From Acidobacteriota bacterium (GTDB lineage Bacteria; Actinomycetota; Actinomycetes; Actinomycetales; Microbacteriaceae), in the NCBI GenBank assembly GCA_019351995.1, contig JABBOD010000014.1:1457-65456 (forward strand): a DNA stretch of 64,000 nucleotides. The letters run 5' to 3'. Of this stretch, positions 17,059-20,893 are shown piece after piece. The translations under genes and the position numbers were made by a program. The notes under the pieces are model-generated. The model saw nothing but the letters and a program-made list of their open reading frames with translations, did no database searches and was not told the origin of the DNA. Position 1 is the first letter of the stretch. The number at the start of each line of letters is the position of its first letter.

Positions 17059-18464
17059 GCACCCCGCGCGGGAACCGTCAGCGTGCCACGTCGTCACCGG
17101 CGAACGTGTCCGCGCATCTCGACGCGCCCGCACACCCCGGAAGGGTCGGGCTCTCGAACACCCGCACCCGGATCGTCGGCGCCCGGGAGGGCATCCTGGC
17201 GGATGCCGTCATCAACCTCGTGCGTGTCGGGGCGGCGCTCGGCGCCATGACGTCCCGACTCACCGCGAGGATCGCGTCGGTGGTCACGCCGCTTGGCTGG
17301 GTGATCCTGGGCGTCATCCCGCTCGGTTTCGCGGCCGGCTACCTTCTCGGCTGGATGGAGCTGGTCGTGGTGGCATGGGCGGGTGTCATGCTCGCACTCT
17401 TCGCGCTGCTCTACCTCGTCGGTCGTTCGCCGTTCCATGTGCGGCTCGACCTCGCGCACCGTCGTGTCGTCGTCGGTGAGCCGGCGCGCGGTGCCGTCAC
17501 CGTCGACAACCCGAGCGCACGCCGCACCTTCGGGACGAAGGTCGAGATCCCCGTCGGGCTCGGGCTCGCCGAACTCGCCATCCCGAGCCTGCGGAAGGGA
17601 GCAGAGTTCACGCAGGACTTCGCCATTCCCACACTCCGCCGCGGAGTCATCCGGGTCGGCCCGGTGCGCACCGTACGCGCCGACCCGATCGGGCTCGTTC
17701 GGCGCGAGCTGGTCTGGACCGACATGGTCGACCTCATCGTCCATCCGCGCACGATCGGCGTGCCGTCGACCAGTACCGGTCTCATCCGCGACCTCGAGGG
17801 AGCGCCGACGCGCGACCTGACATCCAGCGACGTCGCCTTCCACGCGTTGCGCGAGTATCAGACGGGCGATGAGCGGCGATACATCCACTGGAAGTCGACG
17901 GCGAAGACCGGTGTCTACATGGTGCGTCAGTTCGAGGAGACCCGGCGAAGCCATCTCATGGTCGCCCTCAGCCTCTCGAACGCGGACTACGAGAGCGACG
18001 AGCAGTTCGAACTCGCGGTCAGTGCCGCCGGCAGTCTCGGCGTGCGCGCCATCCGCGACGGCCGCACCGTGTCCGTCGTGGCCAGTTCGATCACTCCGGA
18101 GTTCGCGAAGCGCAAGAACTTCGCGCTTCGTTCCCTCGCCACTCACCTCCCGTCCCGACTGCTCGACGAGCTCGCCGTCGTCGAAACATCGCCGAATGCT
18201 CTGCGCATCCGTGACGTCGCCAGGGTCGCGGCTGATGAGATCGTCGGCATCTCCGTCGCCTTCCTCATCTGCGGCGGGACACCGACGCCGTCGGAGTTGC
18301 GCGCCGCCTCCAGCTCCTTCCCGCTCGACGTCGCCTGCGTCGCGATCGTCTGCGATCCGGATGCCGTCCCCGGGTTCCGACGGGTTGCCGGCCTCAGCGT
18401 GTTGACCATCGGCTATCTCGACGACCTGCGGATCGCGCTCGCCCGATCGGCATCTCTCGCATGA
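17055..18464 (+). CDS. DUF58 domain-containing membrane protein (vWA-like partner of MoxR)
   Basis: Two N-terminal TM helices, then the DUF58 hallmark 'LREYQTGDERRYIHWKSTAKTG.YMVRQFEE'. GTGA overlap with the moxR stop. Confidence 0.85.
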   Translation: MSTPRGNRQRATSSPANVSAHLDAPAHPGRVGLSNTRTRIVGAREGILADAVINLVRVGAALGAMTSRLTARIASVVTPLGWVILGVIPLGFAAGYLLGWMELVVVAWAGVMLALFALLYLVGRSPFHVRLDLAHRRVVVGEPARGAVTVDNPSARRTFGTKVEIPVGLGLAELAIPSLRKGAEFTQDFAIPTLRRGVIRVGPVRTVRADPIGLVRRELVWTDMVDLIVHPRTIGVPSTSTGLIRDLEGAPTRDLTSSDVAFHALREYQTGDERRYIHWKSTAKTGVYMVRQFEETRRSHLMVALSLSNADYESDEQFELAVSAAGSLGVRAIRDGRTVSVVASSITPEFAKRKNFALRSLATHLPSRLLDELAVVETSPNALRIRDVARVAADEIVGISVAFLICGGTPTPSELRAASSSFPLDVACVAIVCDPDAVPGFRRVAGLSVLTIGYLDDLRIALARSASLA

Positions 18465-20893
18465 GTTCGATGGATGACCTCACGGCACCGACCCCGCCCA
18501 TGACGGCCTCGGCGTCCCGCACGACCTCCGCCTCACGCGTCGTGAGGCGCGCCCCGAAGCCCGGACGGCGGCAGCGATCCGACGGGTTCGTGATCCTCAC
18601 GGTGCTCCTGTACTGGATCACGATCGGCCTGGCGTCGGGCTCGCTCTGGCCCATCTATCAGACGGGTCAGTACGTCGTGCTGGTGATTGTTGCCGTGCTC
18701 CTGGGCACCGTCATCGCGGCCGCGGGAGCCTTCTTCCGTTGGCCGTCGTGGGTCATGGTCGTGGCGGGCTTCCTGGCCTTCCTCGCGTCCGGTGTCCCGT
18801 TGGCGGTCCCCGACAAGACGAGCGCTGGTGTCCTGCCCACCCTGGCCGGGCTCGCAGACCTGCTGGCCGGAGTCGCCCTGGGCTGGAAACAACTCCTCAC
18901 CATCACGCTTCCCGTCGGGGCGTACCAGGCGTTGCTCGTTCCCGCACTCGTGCTGGTGCTCGGGGCCACCATCGCGGGGCTGAGCATCGCCCTGCGCGCC
19001 AAGTGGGGCGAGCTCGGCGTCATCCCGCCGGTCGTCATTCTGCTGGTCGGGATTGCGTTCGGTCCCGATCGAGACCTCAATCCCATCTGGCTGACGCTCG
19101 CGATCCTCGGTGCGATTTTGATTACCCTGATCTGGCGACGGTGGCGGCGACGCCGAGAAGCGATCAGTGAGTTGGCGCGCTCGACACCGGATGCCGATGG
19201 CAAGCCACTCGCGACGGCCAGCTACGGCGGTCCGGTCCTTCGAGGCCTTCTGGCGGGGGGCATCATCCTCGCGATCTCCGGAGGAGCCGCGCTGGGTGCG
19301 ACCACCGCGCTCCCGCCCACCAGCGACCGCACGGTGTTGCGCACCTCCGTCGTCCAGCCGTTCGACCCGCGAGACTATGCCAGCCCTCTTGCGGGCTTCC
19401 GTCGCTATCTTTTGGCGGATAAGAGCAGCCAGCCTCAGATCCAGGTCACCGGCCTGCCGACGGGCGCCCGCATCCGGATCGCCACCCTCGACAGCTACGA
19501 CGGTGTGGTCTATTCGGTGGGAAGCTCGGCGGTGGACAGCGGCTCTGGGACCTTCGTCCGCATCCCGTCGACCGTCGACCAGTCACGCGTGCATGGCAAA
19601 CAGATCTCGCTGACCGTGACGATCGACGGCTATTCTGGCGTCTGGCTGCCGACCGTCGGAGACCTCGAGTCCGTGACCTTCCTCGGTGGCAATGCCGCCC
19701 AATTGGGGAACAACTTCTACTTCAACAGCACCAGCGGGACCGGGGCCGTGCTCGGGGGAGTCCGCTCGGGGGAGAGCTACGCGATCACCGCCGTGCTGCC
19801 GACGGAACCCGATGCGACCCAGCTCATGCACGTGACGCCCGGCTCGGCAACGGTTCCGCACATCGGCGTGCTGCCCGACGGCCTGGCCCAACACCTCGAC
19901 GGCTACGTCGCGGGTCAGACGACGACGGGTGGGCGTCTTGTCGCCATGATCGATGGCCTCAAGCGGGAGGGGTACATCAGCCACGGCATCGATCCTTCGC
20001 AGCCGCCCAGTCGTTCAGGGCACGCGGCCGATCGCATCTCGCAGCTGTTCACCGACCCTCGGATGATCGGCGATGCCGAGCAGTACTCCGTCGCAGCCGC
20101 GTTGATGGCCCGTCAGCTCGGCTTCCCGGCGCGGGTTGTCTTCGGCTTCGCCCCTCAGGGTTCGGCCTCGAGGCTCGACGTGACCGGGGCCGACGTGTCC
20201 GCCTGGATCGAGGTCGATACGGCGCAGTACGGGTGGGTCACGATCGACCCGAATCCCCCGACGAGGCCGATCCCCGCCGAGCAGCAGCACGATCCGAACA
20301 AGGTGGCGCGACCAGAGACCATTGTCCCGCCGCCGTCCAATCAGGCTCAGCCTCAGCAGACGCAGACCGCCCCGGATGTCAGTCAGAATCAGTCGAACGC
20401 CATTGACCCGGTGCTGCTCGCCGTGTTGCAGGTACTCAAGGTGACCGGAATCGTCGCGCTCGTCCTTCTCATCCTGTCTGCCCCGTTTCTGCTGATCGTC
20501 GCCGCCAAGCTCCGCCGCCGGCGTCTCCGTCGACGCGCGGGTTCCCCCCTGCAGCGCATCCGCGGCGGCTGGGACGAGTTCGAGGATTCCGTCATGGACC
20601 ACGGGCTGCAACCCCCGCCCTCCGCCACCCGTTCCGAGGTCGCCGGCGTTGTCGGAACGCTGCCGTCTCGGGTGCTCGCCGCGGTCGCTGACCGTGCCGT
20701 ATTCGCCCCCGATGAGGTCGATCCCGCCGACGCCGACCGGGTCTGGGATGCCGTCGCAGATCTTCGGGCGTCGCTTGATGCGCCGCTCACCCGCCGCCGG
20801 CGCGCGTTGGCCATGATCTCGCTCCGCTCGCTCGGTGGTTATAGTGGGCGGGGCCTGTTCCGGCGGGCCGGTCGCAAGGGGGATCGATCATGA
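18461..20893 (+). CDS. transglutaminase-like (TgpA-type) polytopic membrane protein, predicted catalytically inactive
   Basis: Has ~6 N-terminal TM helices and a TGase-core-like block 'GDAEQYSVAAALMARQLGFPARVV.GF...SAWIEVD...GWVTIDPNP'. These are followed by a P/Q linker, a further TM helix and a DUF4129-like tail. The translation contains no Cys. ATGA overlap on both sides. Confidence 0.82.
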   Translation: MSSMDDLTAPTPPMTASASRTTSASRVVRRAPKPGRRQRSDGFVILTVLLYWITIGLASGSLWPIYQTGQYVVLVIVAVLLGTVIAAAGAFFRWPSWVMVVAGFLAFLASGVPLAVPDKTSAGVLPTLAGLADLLAGVALGWKQLLTITLPVGAYQALLVPALVLVLGATIAGLSIALRAKWGELGVIPPVVILLVGIAFGPDRDLNPIWLTLAILGAILITLIWRRWRRRREAISELARSTPDADGKPLATASYGGPVLRGLLAGGIILAISGGAALGATTALPPTSDRTVLRTSVVQPFDPRDYASPLAGFRRYLLADKSSQPQIQVTGLPTGARIRIATLDSYDGVVYSVGSSAVDSGSGTFVRIPSTVDQSRVHGKQISLTVTIDGYSGVWLPTVGDLESVTFLGGNAAQLGNNFYFNSTSGTGAVLGGVRSGESYAITAVLPTEPDATQLMHVTPGSATVPHIGVLPDGLAQHLDGYVAGQTTTGGRLVAMIDGLKREGYISHGIDPSQPPSRSGHAADRISQLFTDPRMIGDAEQYSVAAALMARQLGFPARVVFGFAPQGSASRLDVTGADVSAWIEVDTAQYGWVTIDPNPPTRPIPAEQQHDPNKVARPETIVPPPSNQAQPQQTQTAPDVSQNQSNAIDPVLLAVLQVLKVTGIVALVLLILSAPFLLIVAAKLRRRRLRRRAGSPLQRIRGGWDEFEDSVMDHGLQPPPSATRSEVAGVVGTLPSRVLAAVADRAVFAPDEVDPADADRVWDAVADLRASLDAPLTRRRRALAMISLRSLGGYSGRGLFRRAGRKGDRS

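What the first reader, a model, noticed from the sequence alone, without database searches (positions are those of the whole stretch)
18461..20893. Transglutaminase-like protein is cysteine-free: catalytic Cys and His appear replaced (pseudo-enzyme)
SEEN: I find no cysteine in the 810-aa translation. The block that aligns by eye to the TGase-core consensus (G-x-C-x-x-F/Y-A/S ... H-A-W-V-E-V ... W-x-x-x-D-P-T) reads 'GDAEQYS' (Ala codon 20075-20077), 'SAWIEV' (Ser codon 20198-20200) and 'WVTIDPN' (Asp 20246-20248). ESTABLISHED: transglutaminase and papain-like cores use a Cys-His-Asp triad, so a thiol nucleophile is impossible without a Cys. INFERENCE: the protein keeps the fold as a scaffold or binding module inside the MoxR-DUF58 unit rather than cross-linking substrates. 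This would change how the whole trio should be interpreted.
Basis: partly seen in the sequence, partly recalled or inferred. Interest (0 to 1): 0.62.

Follow-up and report, generated by a model that had tools for sequence, protein, structure and literature searches.

The report
Cysteine-free pseudo-transglutaminase in PFNA-type operon
This membrane protein keeps the shape of a transglutaminase but has no catalytic cysteine; the same holds across a large, strongly conserved actinobacterial family, including the bifidobacterial "Tgm" that papers still call an enzyme, so it probably binds rather than cross-links.

Summary
ORF 18461-20893 encodes 810 aa with no Cys. Sequence, profile-profile and fold comparisons with TgpA-type transglutaminases put Ala539, Ser580 and Asp596 at the Cys, His and Asp positions.

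This is neither decay nor a sequencing error:
- dN/dS against a 94%-identical orthologue is 0.10 for the gene and 0.023 for the transglutaminase-like core.
- None of about 390 relatives has Cys at that column (120 close homologues, 150 distant cluster representatives, 119 named genomes).
- The family motif is G-D-x-E-Q-Y/F. The former Cys column varies freely while its neighbours are fixed.

The same genome has a second MoxR-DUF58-TgpA trio whose family keeps Cys and His in 120 of 120 members.

The Cys-less gene always follows a giant FN3/Ig surface-protein gene, MoxR and DUF58, with FHA, PP2C and kinase genes nearby. This is the bifidobacterial PFNA cluster type. B. longum GT15 Tgm reads Ser/Thr/Tyr at the triad, although PFNA papers call it a transglutaminase or cysteine protease.

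Best reading: a selected, non-catalytic extracytoplasmic binding module that links the MoxR-DUF58 pair to the envelope. The binding role is inferred, not shown. Basal lineages carry Asp-His-Asp, so a non-thiol chemistry is not excluded.

The parts
18461..20893 (+). TgpA-like membrane pseudo-transglutaminase, 810 aa, no Cys (P0001)
18590..19312 (+). N-terminal polytopic membrane region (TgpA_N, residues about 44-284). The Arg-rich loop 226-261 is read as cytoplasmic by the positive-inside rule.
   Evidence: Pfam; helices in the AF2 model; topology is inference
19313..20407 (+). Extracytoplasmic domain (residues 285-649): beta-sandwich, transglutaminase-like core and Pro-rich linker. It superposes on the periplasmic domain of TgpA.
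   Evidence: Foldseek 6g49/6g4h, 308-319 columns
19913..20251 (+). Transglut_core match (residues 485-597). dN/dS is 0.023, the lowest of any segment of the gene.
20009..20035 (+). Family-specific motif S517-x-x-G520-H521-x-x-x-R525. It is nearly invariant in the Cys-less family; the canonical paralogue has other residues at Ser517, His521 and Arg525 (Gly520 is shared).
20069..20086 (+). G537-D538-A539-E540-Q541-Y542, replacing the canonical G-Y/F-C-x-H-F/Y. Ala539 (20075-20077) sits at the nucleophile position.
20198..20200 (+). Ser580 at the catalytic His position
20246..20248 (+). Asp596, the retained third triad residue
20408..20893 (+). Last TM helix (residues about 650-682) and the Arg-rich cytoplasmic DUF4129-like tail. 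The tail is colinear with that of the canonical family (W704, T723 and R724 invariant).
17055..18464 (+). DUF58 protein with two predicted TM helices. Its stop overlaps the pseudo-TGase start (ATGA).
   Evidence: DUF58 lies upstream in 69 of 69 related loci
16087..17058 (+). MoxR (AAA_3) ATPase. The ORF is open from 15820 but the likely start is ATG 16087, behind GAGGAA. PGTGKT and VLADE motifs are present. The stop overlaps the DUF58 start (GTGTGA).
   Evidence: MoxR lies upstream in 52 of 52 related loci
10053..16013 (+). Giant surface protein of 1986 aa (Big_9, cadherin-like and fn3 repeats)
   Evidence: a homologue lies upstream in 29 of 29 related loci with enough flank
8616..10046 (+). 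Ser/Thr protein kinase
7672..8568 (+). PP2C phosphatase
6958..7620 (+). Possible small FHA protein (weak match, below the Pfam cut-off)
   Evidence: E 0.005, 17.6 bits
20890..21999 (+). Double zinc-ribbon plus FHA protein. Its start overlaps the pseudo-TGase stop (ATGA).
   Evidence: FHA lies downstream in 60 of 81 related loci
22092..24890 (+). FtsK/SpoIIIE-family ATPase. A homologue follows the FHA gene in several close relatives of the window's clade.

Best explanation
The gene encodes a TgpA-architecture membrane protein whose extracytoplasmic transglutaminase-like domain is a conserved pseudo-enzyme. It has no thiol, its nucleophile position is free to vary, and in this lineage the His is gone too, so it cannot carry out Cys-His-Asp transamidation or proteolysis. 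That much is shown. The domain is nevertheless the most strongly selected part of the protein, and it carries a re-designed, invariant polar motif set (S-x-x-G-H...R, G-D-x-E-Q-Y, A-W-x-E, G-W) where the active-site cleft was. The inferred mechanism is that the former substrate cleft now works as a ligand-holding groove on the outer face of the membrane. The most likely ligand is a segment of the giant FN3/cadherin surface protein that is always encoded just upstream; a cell-wall peptide is the alternative. The conserved cytoplasmic DUF4129-like tail would couple that groove to the membrane DUF58 protein and the MoxR AAA+ ATPase. The whole unit would be gated by the co-encoded Ser/Thr kinase, PP2C phosphatase and FHA proteins. 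It belongs to the gene-cluster type published as the bifidobacterial PFNA operon, which turns out to be widespread in the class Actinomycetes.
For: No Cys, and the triad mapping is consistent across methods. Family-wide absence of Cys at that column: 120 close homologues, 150 representatives at 32-58% identity, 119 named genome loci. In 127 of 401 genomes of the same order the signature matched, the reversed-pattern control gave 0 hits, and I saw no TGY codon at that position when reading the matches by eye. The Cys column has 2.2 bits of entropy between columns of 0-0.2 bits. Purifying selection: dN/dS is 0.10 for the gene and 0.023 for the core. Control: the canonical paralogue family from the same kind of genomes keeps C, H and E in 120 of 120 members and forms a stand-alone trio without a giant protein or kinase. 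Context: DUF58 upstream 69/69, MoxR 52/52, giant FN3/Ig protein 29/29, FHA downstream 60/81; start and stop codons overlap from MoxR through FHA. PFNA link: same gene set (PMC6803598, PMC8430577); B. longum GT15 Tgm reads PSDAGHGNYRI / GDSEQYA / DVTAWVEI / FYPTP; Bifidobacterium loci nest inside the family tree. The cytoplasmic tail is colinear and conserved in both families.
Against: No binding partner was tested, and the giant protein as ligand rests only on invariant gene adjacency. The AF2 model is mediocre (pLDDT 64; residues 505-536, which hold the S-x-x-G-H motif, are below 50) and gives no coordinates, so I could not check that the invariant residues line one pocket. Invariant acidic and polar residues around the old nucleophile, together with the Asp-His-Asp state of basal lineages, would also fit a retained non-thiol catalytic or metal site. 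The PFNA literature proposes host-signal sensing for Tgm, a different role, though without biochemical data on Tgm.
Confidence: 0.7

Rival explanations
1. The domain is still an enzyme, using a re-tooled non-thiol site. Candidates are a carboxylate (D538 or E540, or Asp539 with His580 in basal lineages) acting as nucleophile or general base, a metal site built from D538, E540, H521 and E584, or a Ser517/His521 pair.
For: D538, E540, Q541, S517, H521 and R525 are invariant or nearly so across 30%-identity relatives and differ in the canonical family. The core has the lowest dN/dS in the gene. Basal lineages carry Asp-His-Asp, and His never occurs without Asp: 35 of 35 and 45 of 45.
Against: I know of no transglutaminase- or papain-fold enzyme that works without the Cys (my own knowledge; PMC10318531 lists Cys-less members as inactive). 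The nucleophile column takes A, D, Q, E, G, S and H, and the His column takes T, S, A, Q, R and E, with at least 20 and at least 7 changes on the tree; this copy has Ala and Ser. A subfamily lacks S-x-x-G-H altogether (L051, L058, L102, L108, L109). The Asp-His association is largely inherited: only 4-6 phylogenetically independent pairs exist and the sign test gives p = 1.
Confidence: 0.12
2. The ectodomain is a passive spacer. The protein's function would lie in its membrane and cytoplasmic parts, as an anchor or regulator for MoxR-DUF58, and loss of the triad would simply reflect relaxed constraint.
For: The membrane region and the DUF4129-like tail are colinear with, and conserved in, the canonical family. 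The three triad columns themselves are variable.
Against: The core is the most constrained segment (dN/dS 0.023, against 0.16 for the TM region and 0.054 for the tail). New family-specific invariant residues have appeared in it.
Confidence: 0.08
3. The missing Cys is an artefact (a sequencing or assembly error, or a mis-called frame), or the gene is a decaying pseudogene.
For: None found. The genome is a 91-contig draft.
Against: The reading frame is intact for 810 codons and translationally coupled to both neighbours. A 94%-identical orthologue from an independent metagenome has the same GDAEQYS and DVSAWIEV motifs. 120 of 121 homologues have Ala at that column. dN/dS is 0.10.
Confidence: 0.01

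Closest known systems
Tgm of the Bifidobacterium PFNA operon (pkb2-fn3-aaa-atp-duf58-tgm, with or without prpC-hyp-fha; PMC6803598, PMC8430577)
   Same: Same gene set and the same FN3 - MoxR - DUF58 - Tgm core order. Same polytopic TgpA-like architecture. Same family motifs: B. longum GT15 has S-x-x-G-H...R, G-D-S-E-Q-Y, A-W-V-E and G-W, with Ser/Thr/Tyr at the triad columns. Bifidobacterium loci L036 and L121 fall inside the family tree.
   Different: Here the PP2C and kinase genes lie upstream of the giant gene, and an FtsK/SpoIIIE-like ATPase follows the FHA gene. The giant protein is much larger and rich in cadherin/Big_9 repeats. The organism is a free-living Microbacteriaceae member (homologues are named Pseudolysinimonas), not a gut commensal. 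The PFNA papers treat Tgm as a transglutaminase or 'presumably a cysteine protease' and call the cluster species-specific to bifidobacteria. I found no statement that the catalytic Cys is missing; the word 'cysteine' does not occur in PMC6803598.
TgpA (PA2873) of Pseudomonas aeruginosa and its PA2875 (MoxR)-PA2874 (DUF58)-tgpA operon (PMC3507681; PDB 6g49, 6g4h)
   Same: Same domain order: TgpA_N membrane region, periplasmic beta-sandwich plus transglutaminase core, then a TM helix and cytoplasmic tail. Same three-gene operon. It is the best and only significant match by both sequence and fold among solved structures.
   Different: TgpA has the Cys-His-Asp triad and measured transglutaminase activity in vitro (PMC3507681). 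This protein has Ala/Ser/Asp and no Cys anywhere. TgpA's operon has no giant surface protein, kinase or FHA genes.
The canonical TgpA-like paralogue of the same genome (contig C4; L006 6870-9140, minus strand; P0281)
   Same: Colinear over 693 profile columns (hhalign probability 100). It is also preceded by MoxR and DUF58.
   Different: It keeps Cys, His and Glu, as do all 120 listed homologues. It is a stand-alone trio beside F420-related genes, with no giant protein, kinase or FHA. Its Transglut_core score is higher: 84 bits against 49.
Known transglutaminase-fold pseudo-enzymes: erythrocyte protein 4.2 (EPB42), Rad4/XPC, FBXO21 (listed in PMC10318531)
   Same: The transglutaminase or papain-like fold is retained after loss of the catalytic Cys and is used for binding or scaffolding.
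   Different: These are eukaryotic, soluble, unrelated lineages. In protein 4.2 the residues flanking the lost Cys are largely kept (my own knowledge). Here the flanks were rebuilt into a new invariant motif while the nucleophile column drifts.

Membership tests
Transglutaminase-like superfamily (Pfam PF01841), as a fold | Significant profile match and a transglutaminase or papain-like core fold | tested here: met
   49.2 bits against a cut-off of 23, residues 485-597. Foldseek to TgpA 6g49, E 7.5e-9.
Catalytically active transglutaminase or cysteine protease | Cys nucleophile at the N-terminus of the core helix (G-x-C-x-x-F/Y) | tested here: not met
   Ala539; the protein has no Cys at all.
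Catalytically active transglutaminase or cysteine protease | Catalytic His (H-A-W-x-E) | tested here: not met
   Ser580.
Catalytically active transglutaminase or cysteine protease | Catalytic Asp (or Glu) (D-P-T) | tested here: met
   Asp596.
Catalytically active transglutaminase or cysteine protease | Measurable transamidase or protease activity | not testable with these tools
   This needs a biochemical assay of the ectodomain.
TgpA-type membrane protein in a MoxR-DUF58 operon | TgpA_N membrane region, extracytoplasmic core, TM helix and DUF4129-like tail | tested here: met
   Pfam. Colinear with the canonical family over 693 columns. Helices in the model.
TgpA-type membrane protein in a MoxR-DUF58 operon | Directly preceded by MoxR (AAA_3) and DUF58 genes on the same strand | tested here: met
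   (overlapping stop and start codons). 69/69 and 52/52 in relatives.
PFNA-type cluster (Bifidobacterium) | Core genes for STPK, FN3 protein, MoxR AAA-ATPase, DUF58 and Tgm together on one strand | tested here: met
   Window 8616-20893 holds all five in that order. PP2C and FHA genes are also present.
PFNA-type cluster (Bifidobacterium) | Tgm is homologous to bifidobacterial Tgm | tested here: met
   The motif set is shared with B. longum GT15 WP_038426324.1. Bifidobacterium loci nest within the family.
PFNA-type cluster (Bifidobacterium) | Co-transcription as one operon; the kinase phosphorylates the AAA-ATPase | not tested
   Reported for B. longum (PMC8430577). Here there are only overlapping start and stop codons.

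The most novel reading that the evidence does not exclude
The G-D-x-E-Q-Y family would not be a dead enzyme but a re-tooled one. Its ancestor replaced the Cys-His ion pair with Asp-His (Asp-His-Asp survives in Micrococcaceae, Microbacterium, Cellulomonadaceae, Propionibacteriales and Streptosporangiaceae) and gained an invariant Ser-x-x-Gly-His...Arg / Asp-x-Glu-Gln site. That site would carry out a non-thiol reaction or metal-dependent binding on the outer face of the membrane. It would be the working end of a class-wide actinobacterial MoxR-driven, phospho-regulated machine that installs or remodels giant adhesin-like surface proteins. On this reading the bifidobacterial 'host cytokine-sensing, species-specific' PFNA operon is one local version of that machine.
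Probability: 0.12. Interest if true: 0.75.

Novelty: new variant of a known kind. Interest (0 to 1): 0.45.

Why it matters
Genome annotation labels thousands of these proteins "transglutaminase-like putative cysteine protease" (source names). The PFNA literature on probiotic bifidobacteria builds on Tgm being a transglutaminase or cysteine protease. This family has never had the catalytic cysteine, while a Cys-bearing paralogue family coexists in the same genomes, so two functionally different MoxR-DUF58-TgpA modules need to be told apart. The Cys-less one is tied, without exception in my sample, to a giant surface protein and Ser/Thr phospho-signalling genes. That gives the poorly understood MoxR-DUF58 pair a concrete, testable client. 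The cluster is also spread across the class Actinomycetes, including soil Microbacteriaceae, which weakens the claim that it is a bifidobacterial host-adaptation invention.

Tried and rejected
- The search for related loci with the diverse alignment A2 failed because no stretch of 7-10 columns was conserved enough. I replaced it with my own degenerate DNA signature scan.
- NCBIfam has no model for either paralogue.
- The AF2 model of the full protein is only moderate (pLDDT 64, pTM 0.42). The S-x-x-G-H loop is below 50, and the tools return no coordinates, so I could not test whether the invariant residues form one pocket.
- I tried to show correlated evolution of Asp539 and His580 with phylogenetically independent pairs. 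Only 4-6 pairs exist and the sign test gives p = 1. The raw association (39 Asp-with-His, 0 His-without-Asp; Fisher 4e-18) is therefore largely inherited, and I do not claim it as co-evolution.
- Look-up of P0339 for more canonical-trio context found nothing.
- Rejected: sequencing error or pseudogene; a Cys elsewhere substituting (the protein has none); Cys avoidance as a general property of TgpA-like proteins in this organism (the paralogue keeps Cys).
- The basal part of the family tree is an unresolved polytomy built with the 'quick' method. 'Asp-His is ancestral' is therefore the parsimonious reading, not a demonstrated one.

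
Full report
**1.

ORF 18461-20893 (+) translates to 810 residues with no stop and no cysteine.
- GDAEQYS begins at residue 537, so Ala539 is GCC at 20075-20077.
- SAWIEV begins at residue 580, so Ser580 is TCC at 20198-20200.
- WVTIDPN begins at residue 592, so Asp596 is at 20246-20248.

Pfam finds TgpA_N (55-448), Transglut_core (485-597; 49.2 bits, cut-off 23) and a sub-threshold DUF4129 (704-765).

**2. 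The residue assignment is not an eyeballing artefact**

Four independent alignments agree.
- phmmer against solved structures finds only P. aeruginosa TgpA (6g49). It aligns GFCAHYA with GDAEQYS, DAHAWVEY with DVSAWIEV, and WLSVDPT with WVTIDPN.
- A profile-profile alignment between this family (A2) and the Cys-bearing paralogue family (A3) has probability 100 and is colinear over 693 columns. It pairs GDdEQYA with GYCVHFA, DvxAWVEV with DLHAWPEL, and FDPTP with FEPTP.
- A MAFFT alignment with the paralogue gives the same columns.
- An AlphaFold2 model (pLDDT 64 overall, 80-90 across residues 540-600) has as its only meaningful PDB matches the periplasmic domain of TgpA: 6g49 and 6g4h, E 7.5e-9, 308-319 aligned columns, TM 0.52-0.57 on the target.

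**3. It is not decay or error**

- Among the 120 best homologues (58-94% identity, named Pseudolysinimonas, Schumannella or Microbacteriaceae), the Cys column is Ala in 120 of 121 sequences, query included (one Asp). The His column is Thr, Ser or Ala, the Asp column is Asp in 119, and 98 of 121 proteins have no Cys at all.
- A 94%-identical orthologue from an independent metagenome (L127) has the same motifs. Against it, dN/dS is 0.10 for the gene and 0.023 for residues 485-600, the lowest of any segment. The TM region is 0.16 and the C-terminal part 0.054.

**4. The loss is family-wide and old**

- A full HMMER scan of 1.84 billion cluster representatives gave 5250 hits, 943 of them below 1e-30. 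In the best 150 (32-58% identity) no sequence has Cys at the nucleophile column. The counts are D 56, A 47, Q 17, E 15, G 9, S 3. The flanking residues are fixed: G537 in all 149 aligned sequences, D538 in 145, E540 in 150, Q541 in 149, Y/F542 in 150.
- Column entropy is 2.2 bits for the old Cys position and 2.46 bits for the old His position. The surrounding columns are at 0-0.2 bits.
- Residues S517, H521 and R525 are also nearly invariant in this family, and the canonical family has other residues there. G520 is nearly invariant too, but the paralogue shares it.
- A degenerate DNA signature for G-D-x-E-Q-[YF]-x11-G-x-P-[AS]-R-[VIM], with x left free, was scanned over one genome per species. 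The named taxa are Microbacteriaceae, Micrococcaceae, Cellulomonadaceae, Promicromonosporaceae, Dermabacteraceae, Dermatophilaceae, Beutenbergiaceae, Actinomyces, Bifidobacterium, Propionibacteriales, Nakamurella, Actinokineospora, Dactylosporangium and Streptosporangiaceae. Again 0 of 119 have Cys.
- In an even sample of 401 genomes of the window's order, 127 carry the exact signature and the reversed-pattern control gave no hit. This is a lower bound, because the signature catches about 80% of members.

**5. A built-in control**

The window's own genome has five Transglut_core genes, and the window's copy scores lowest. One of the others, on contig C4, is a second TgpA-like protein preceded by MoxR and DUF58. 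It reads GYCVHFAS / DLHAWPEL / WLRFEPT. Its 120 best homologues span 45-100% identity, with source names again mostly Pseudolysinimonas. They keep Cys, His and Glu in 120 of 120.

That trio stands alone beside F420-related genes, both here and in Protaetiibacter larvae. Two different MoxR-DUF58-TgpA modules therefore coexist, and only one is Cys-less.

**6. Context**

The window reads, all on the plus strand:
- a possible FHA gene (6958-7620; weak)
- PP2C (7672-8568)
- Ser/Thr kinase (8616-10046)
- a 1986-aa Big_9/cadherin/fn3 protein (10053-16013)
- MoxR (probable start 16087)
- DUF58 (17055-18464)
- the pseudo-transglutaminase
- a double zinc-ribbon FHA protein (20890-21999)
- an FtsK/SpoIIIE-family ATPase (22092-24890)

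Start and stop codons overlap at MoxR/DUF58 (GTGTGA), DUF58/Tgm (ATGA) and Tgm/FHA (ATGA).

In the 119 named loci, wherever enough flank was held:
- DUF58 lies directly upstream in 69 of 69.
- MoxR lies upstream in 52 of 52.
- A homologue of the giant protein lies upstream in 29 of 29.
- An FHA gene follows in 60 of 81.
- PP2C or the FtsK-like gene follows in 32 of 52.

**7. Relation to published work**

This gene set and order is the PFNA cluster of bifidobacteria: pkb2, fn3, aaa-atp, duf58, tgm, with or without prpC, a hypothetical gene and fha (PMC6803598, PMC8430577). Those papers call Tgm a 'putative transglutaminase' and 'presumably a cysteine protease'. The word 'cysteine' does not occur in PMC6803598.

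I read the B. longum GT15 tgm sequence (WP_038426324.1) from that paper's own supplementary alignment and translated it...PSDAGHGNYRI...MVGDSEQYASAMALMARDLGLPSRVV...GNDVTAWVEI...GWVAFYPTP. It is a member of this family, with Ser/Thr/Tyr at the triad columns. Two neighbouring species in the same file read GDSEQY or GDGEQY, DIEAWVEI, and F[YF]PTP (read by eye). Bifidobacterium loci L036 and L121 fall inside the family tree.

TgpA of P. aeruginosa is the only characterised relative. It has the triad and measured activity (PMC3507681). Transglutaminase-fold pseudo-enzymes are well known in eukaryotes: EPB42, Rad4 and FBXO21 (PMC10318531).

**8. Evolutionary pattern**

His at column 580 occurs only together with Asp at column 539: 35 of 35 among representatives and 45 of 45 among named loci.

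On a tree rooted with the canonical family:
- The Asp-His lineages fill the unresolved base. These are Micrococcaceae, Microbacterium, Cellulomonas relatives, Promicromonosporaceae, Dermatophilaceae, Propioniciclava and Streptosporangiaceae.
- Most forms without Asp at the old Cys column (48 of 52) sit in one 58-row clade (SH-aLRT 91). Three basal rows are exceptions: L086, L024 and L046.
- The window lies in a 27-row Microbacteriaceae subclade (SH-aLRT 95), nearest to L023.

The parsimonious order is Cys to Asp at the origin of the family, then loss of His, then free drift of the former nucleophile. There are at least 7 and at least 20 changes respectively. The Asp-His association is largely inherited. 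Only 4-6 independent contrasts exist, so I do not claim it as statistically supported co-evolution.

**9. Mechanism**

Shown:
- There is no thiol, and in this copy no His.
- The fold and the TgpA architecture are retained.
- The core is under the strongest constraint in the gene.
- New invariant polar residues surround the old site.
- The gene is invariably adjacent to DUF58, MoxR and a giant surface-protein gene.
- The cytoplasmic tail is conserved and shared with the canonical family.

Inferred:
- Topology: the Arg-rich loops 226-261 and 683-695 are inside and residues 285-649 are outside. This rests on the positive-inside rule and the match to TgpA's periplasmic domain.
- The old substrate cleft now holds a ligand instead of turning it over.
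- The ligand is the co-encoded giant protein or a wall peptide.
- The tail couples to DUF58 and MoxR.
- The kinase, phosphatase and FHA proteins gate the unit. Phosphorylation of the AAA-ATPase by Pkb2 is reported for B. longum in PMC8430577.

The main rival is a re-tooled non-thiol active site. I give it about 0.12 for the family and less for this Ala/Ser copy.

**10. Earlier notes of this scan**

These are AI leads, not evidence. One follow-up in another genome had already linked a similar operon to PFNA and to a Cys-less TgpA-like protein (e1-2190704). Two first-reader notes report the same GDAEQY and SAWIEV motifs elsewhere (e1-2958152, e1-4124179). My results were obtained independently and agree. 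Notes on Firmicutes and archaea (e1-3920948, e1-2953936, e1-4189499, e1-2775049) report Cys-less trios beside other giant surface proteins. They suggest the theme is wider, but I did not test them.

**11. Verdict**

The gene is an ordinary member of a large, already published but mis-described family, so the surprise is moderate. The value lies in four points:
- the family-wide, selected nature of the Cys loss;
- the contrast with the Cys-bearing paralogue in the same genome;
- the correction to the PFNA literature;
- the Asp-His-Asp basal state.

Noticed in passing
Own genome contig C4; L006 6870-9140(-), 9055-10350(-), 10393-11457(-): A second, canonical MoxR-DUF58-TgpA-like trio with Cys, His and Glu intact (GYCVHFAS / DLHAWPEL / WLRFEPT). 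It sits beside CofD and luciferase-like (F420-related) genes, and Protaetiibacter larvae (L128) has the same neighbourhood.
   Followed up: yes
Related loci, e.g. L010, L034, L043, L054, L093, L100: A large Asp-His-Asp subfamily (GDDEQY...HAWVEV...FDPTP) occurs in Micrococcaceae, Microbacterium, Cellulomonas relatives, Propioniciclava and others. His never occurs without Asp at the old Cys column (35/35 and 45/45). Independent contrasts are too few to test co-evolution.
   Followed up: partly
The genome search rows G030, G107, G208, G283, G297, G311, G372, G384 (same family as the window): Several Microbacteriaceae genomes carry two copies of the Cys-less signature. For example, Agromyces has both a GDEEQY/TAWVEV type and a GDGEQY/QAWIEV type (L044 and L012). 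Paralogous PFNA-type clusters therefore coexist in one genome; the window's genome has only one.
   Followed up: partly
L051, L058, L102, L108, L109: A divergent subfamily keeps G-D-D/E-E-Q-F but lacks the upstream S-x-x-G-H...R motif (it reads ...LVAAVGDDEQFA...). It still follows MoxR and DUF58.
   Followed up: no
window 15820-16093: The MoxR reading frame is open from GTG 15820 and overlaps the last 194 nt of the giant gene. The AAA_3 domain starts only at ORF residue 134, and ATG 16087 is preceded by GAGGAA, so the real start is probably 16087 (323 aa).
   Followed up: partly
window 7672-10046 and 22092-24890, compared with L043, L054, L065 and others: The gene order differs between clades. 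In several close relatives of the window's clade an FtsK/SpoIIIE-like ATPase follows the FHA gene, and in the window PP2C and the kinase lie upstream of the giant gene. In the Asp-His lineages PP2C and the kinase follow Tgm-FHA, and an FtsK-like gene was seen in only one of 26 such loci.
   Followed up: partly
window 6958-7620 (+): A small ORF at the head of the cluster has only a sub-threshold FHA match (E 0.005, 17.6 bits, residues 148-204).
   Followed up: partly
Literature (PMC6803598, PMC8430577) compared with loci L007-L126: The PFNA cluster is described as species-specific to bifidobacteria and tied to host immune sensing. The same cluster type occurs in soil and water Actinomycetes of at least a dozen families.
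   Followed up: partly
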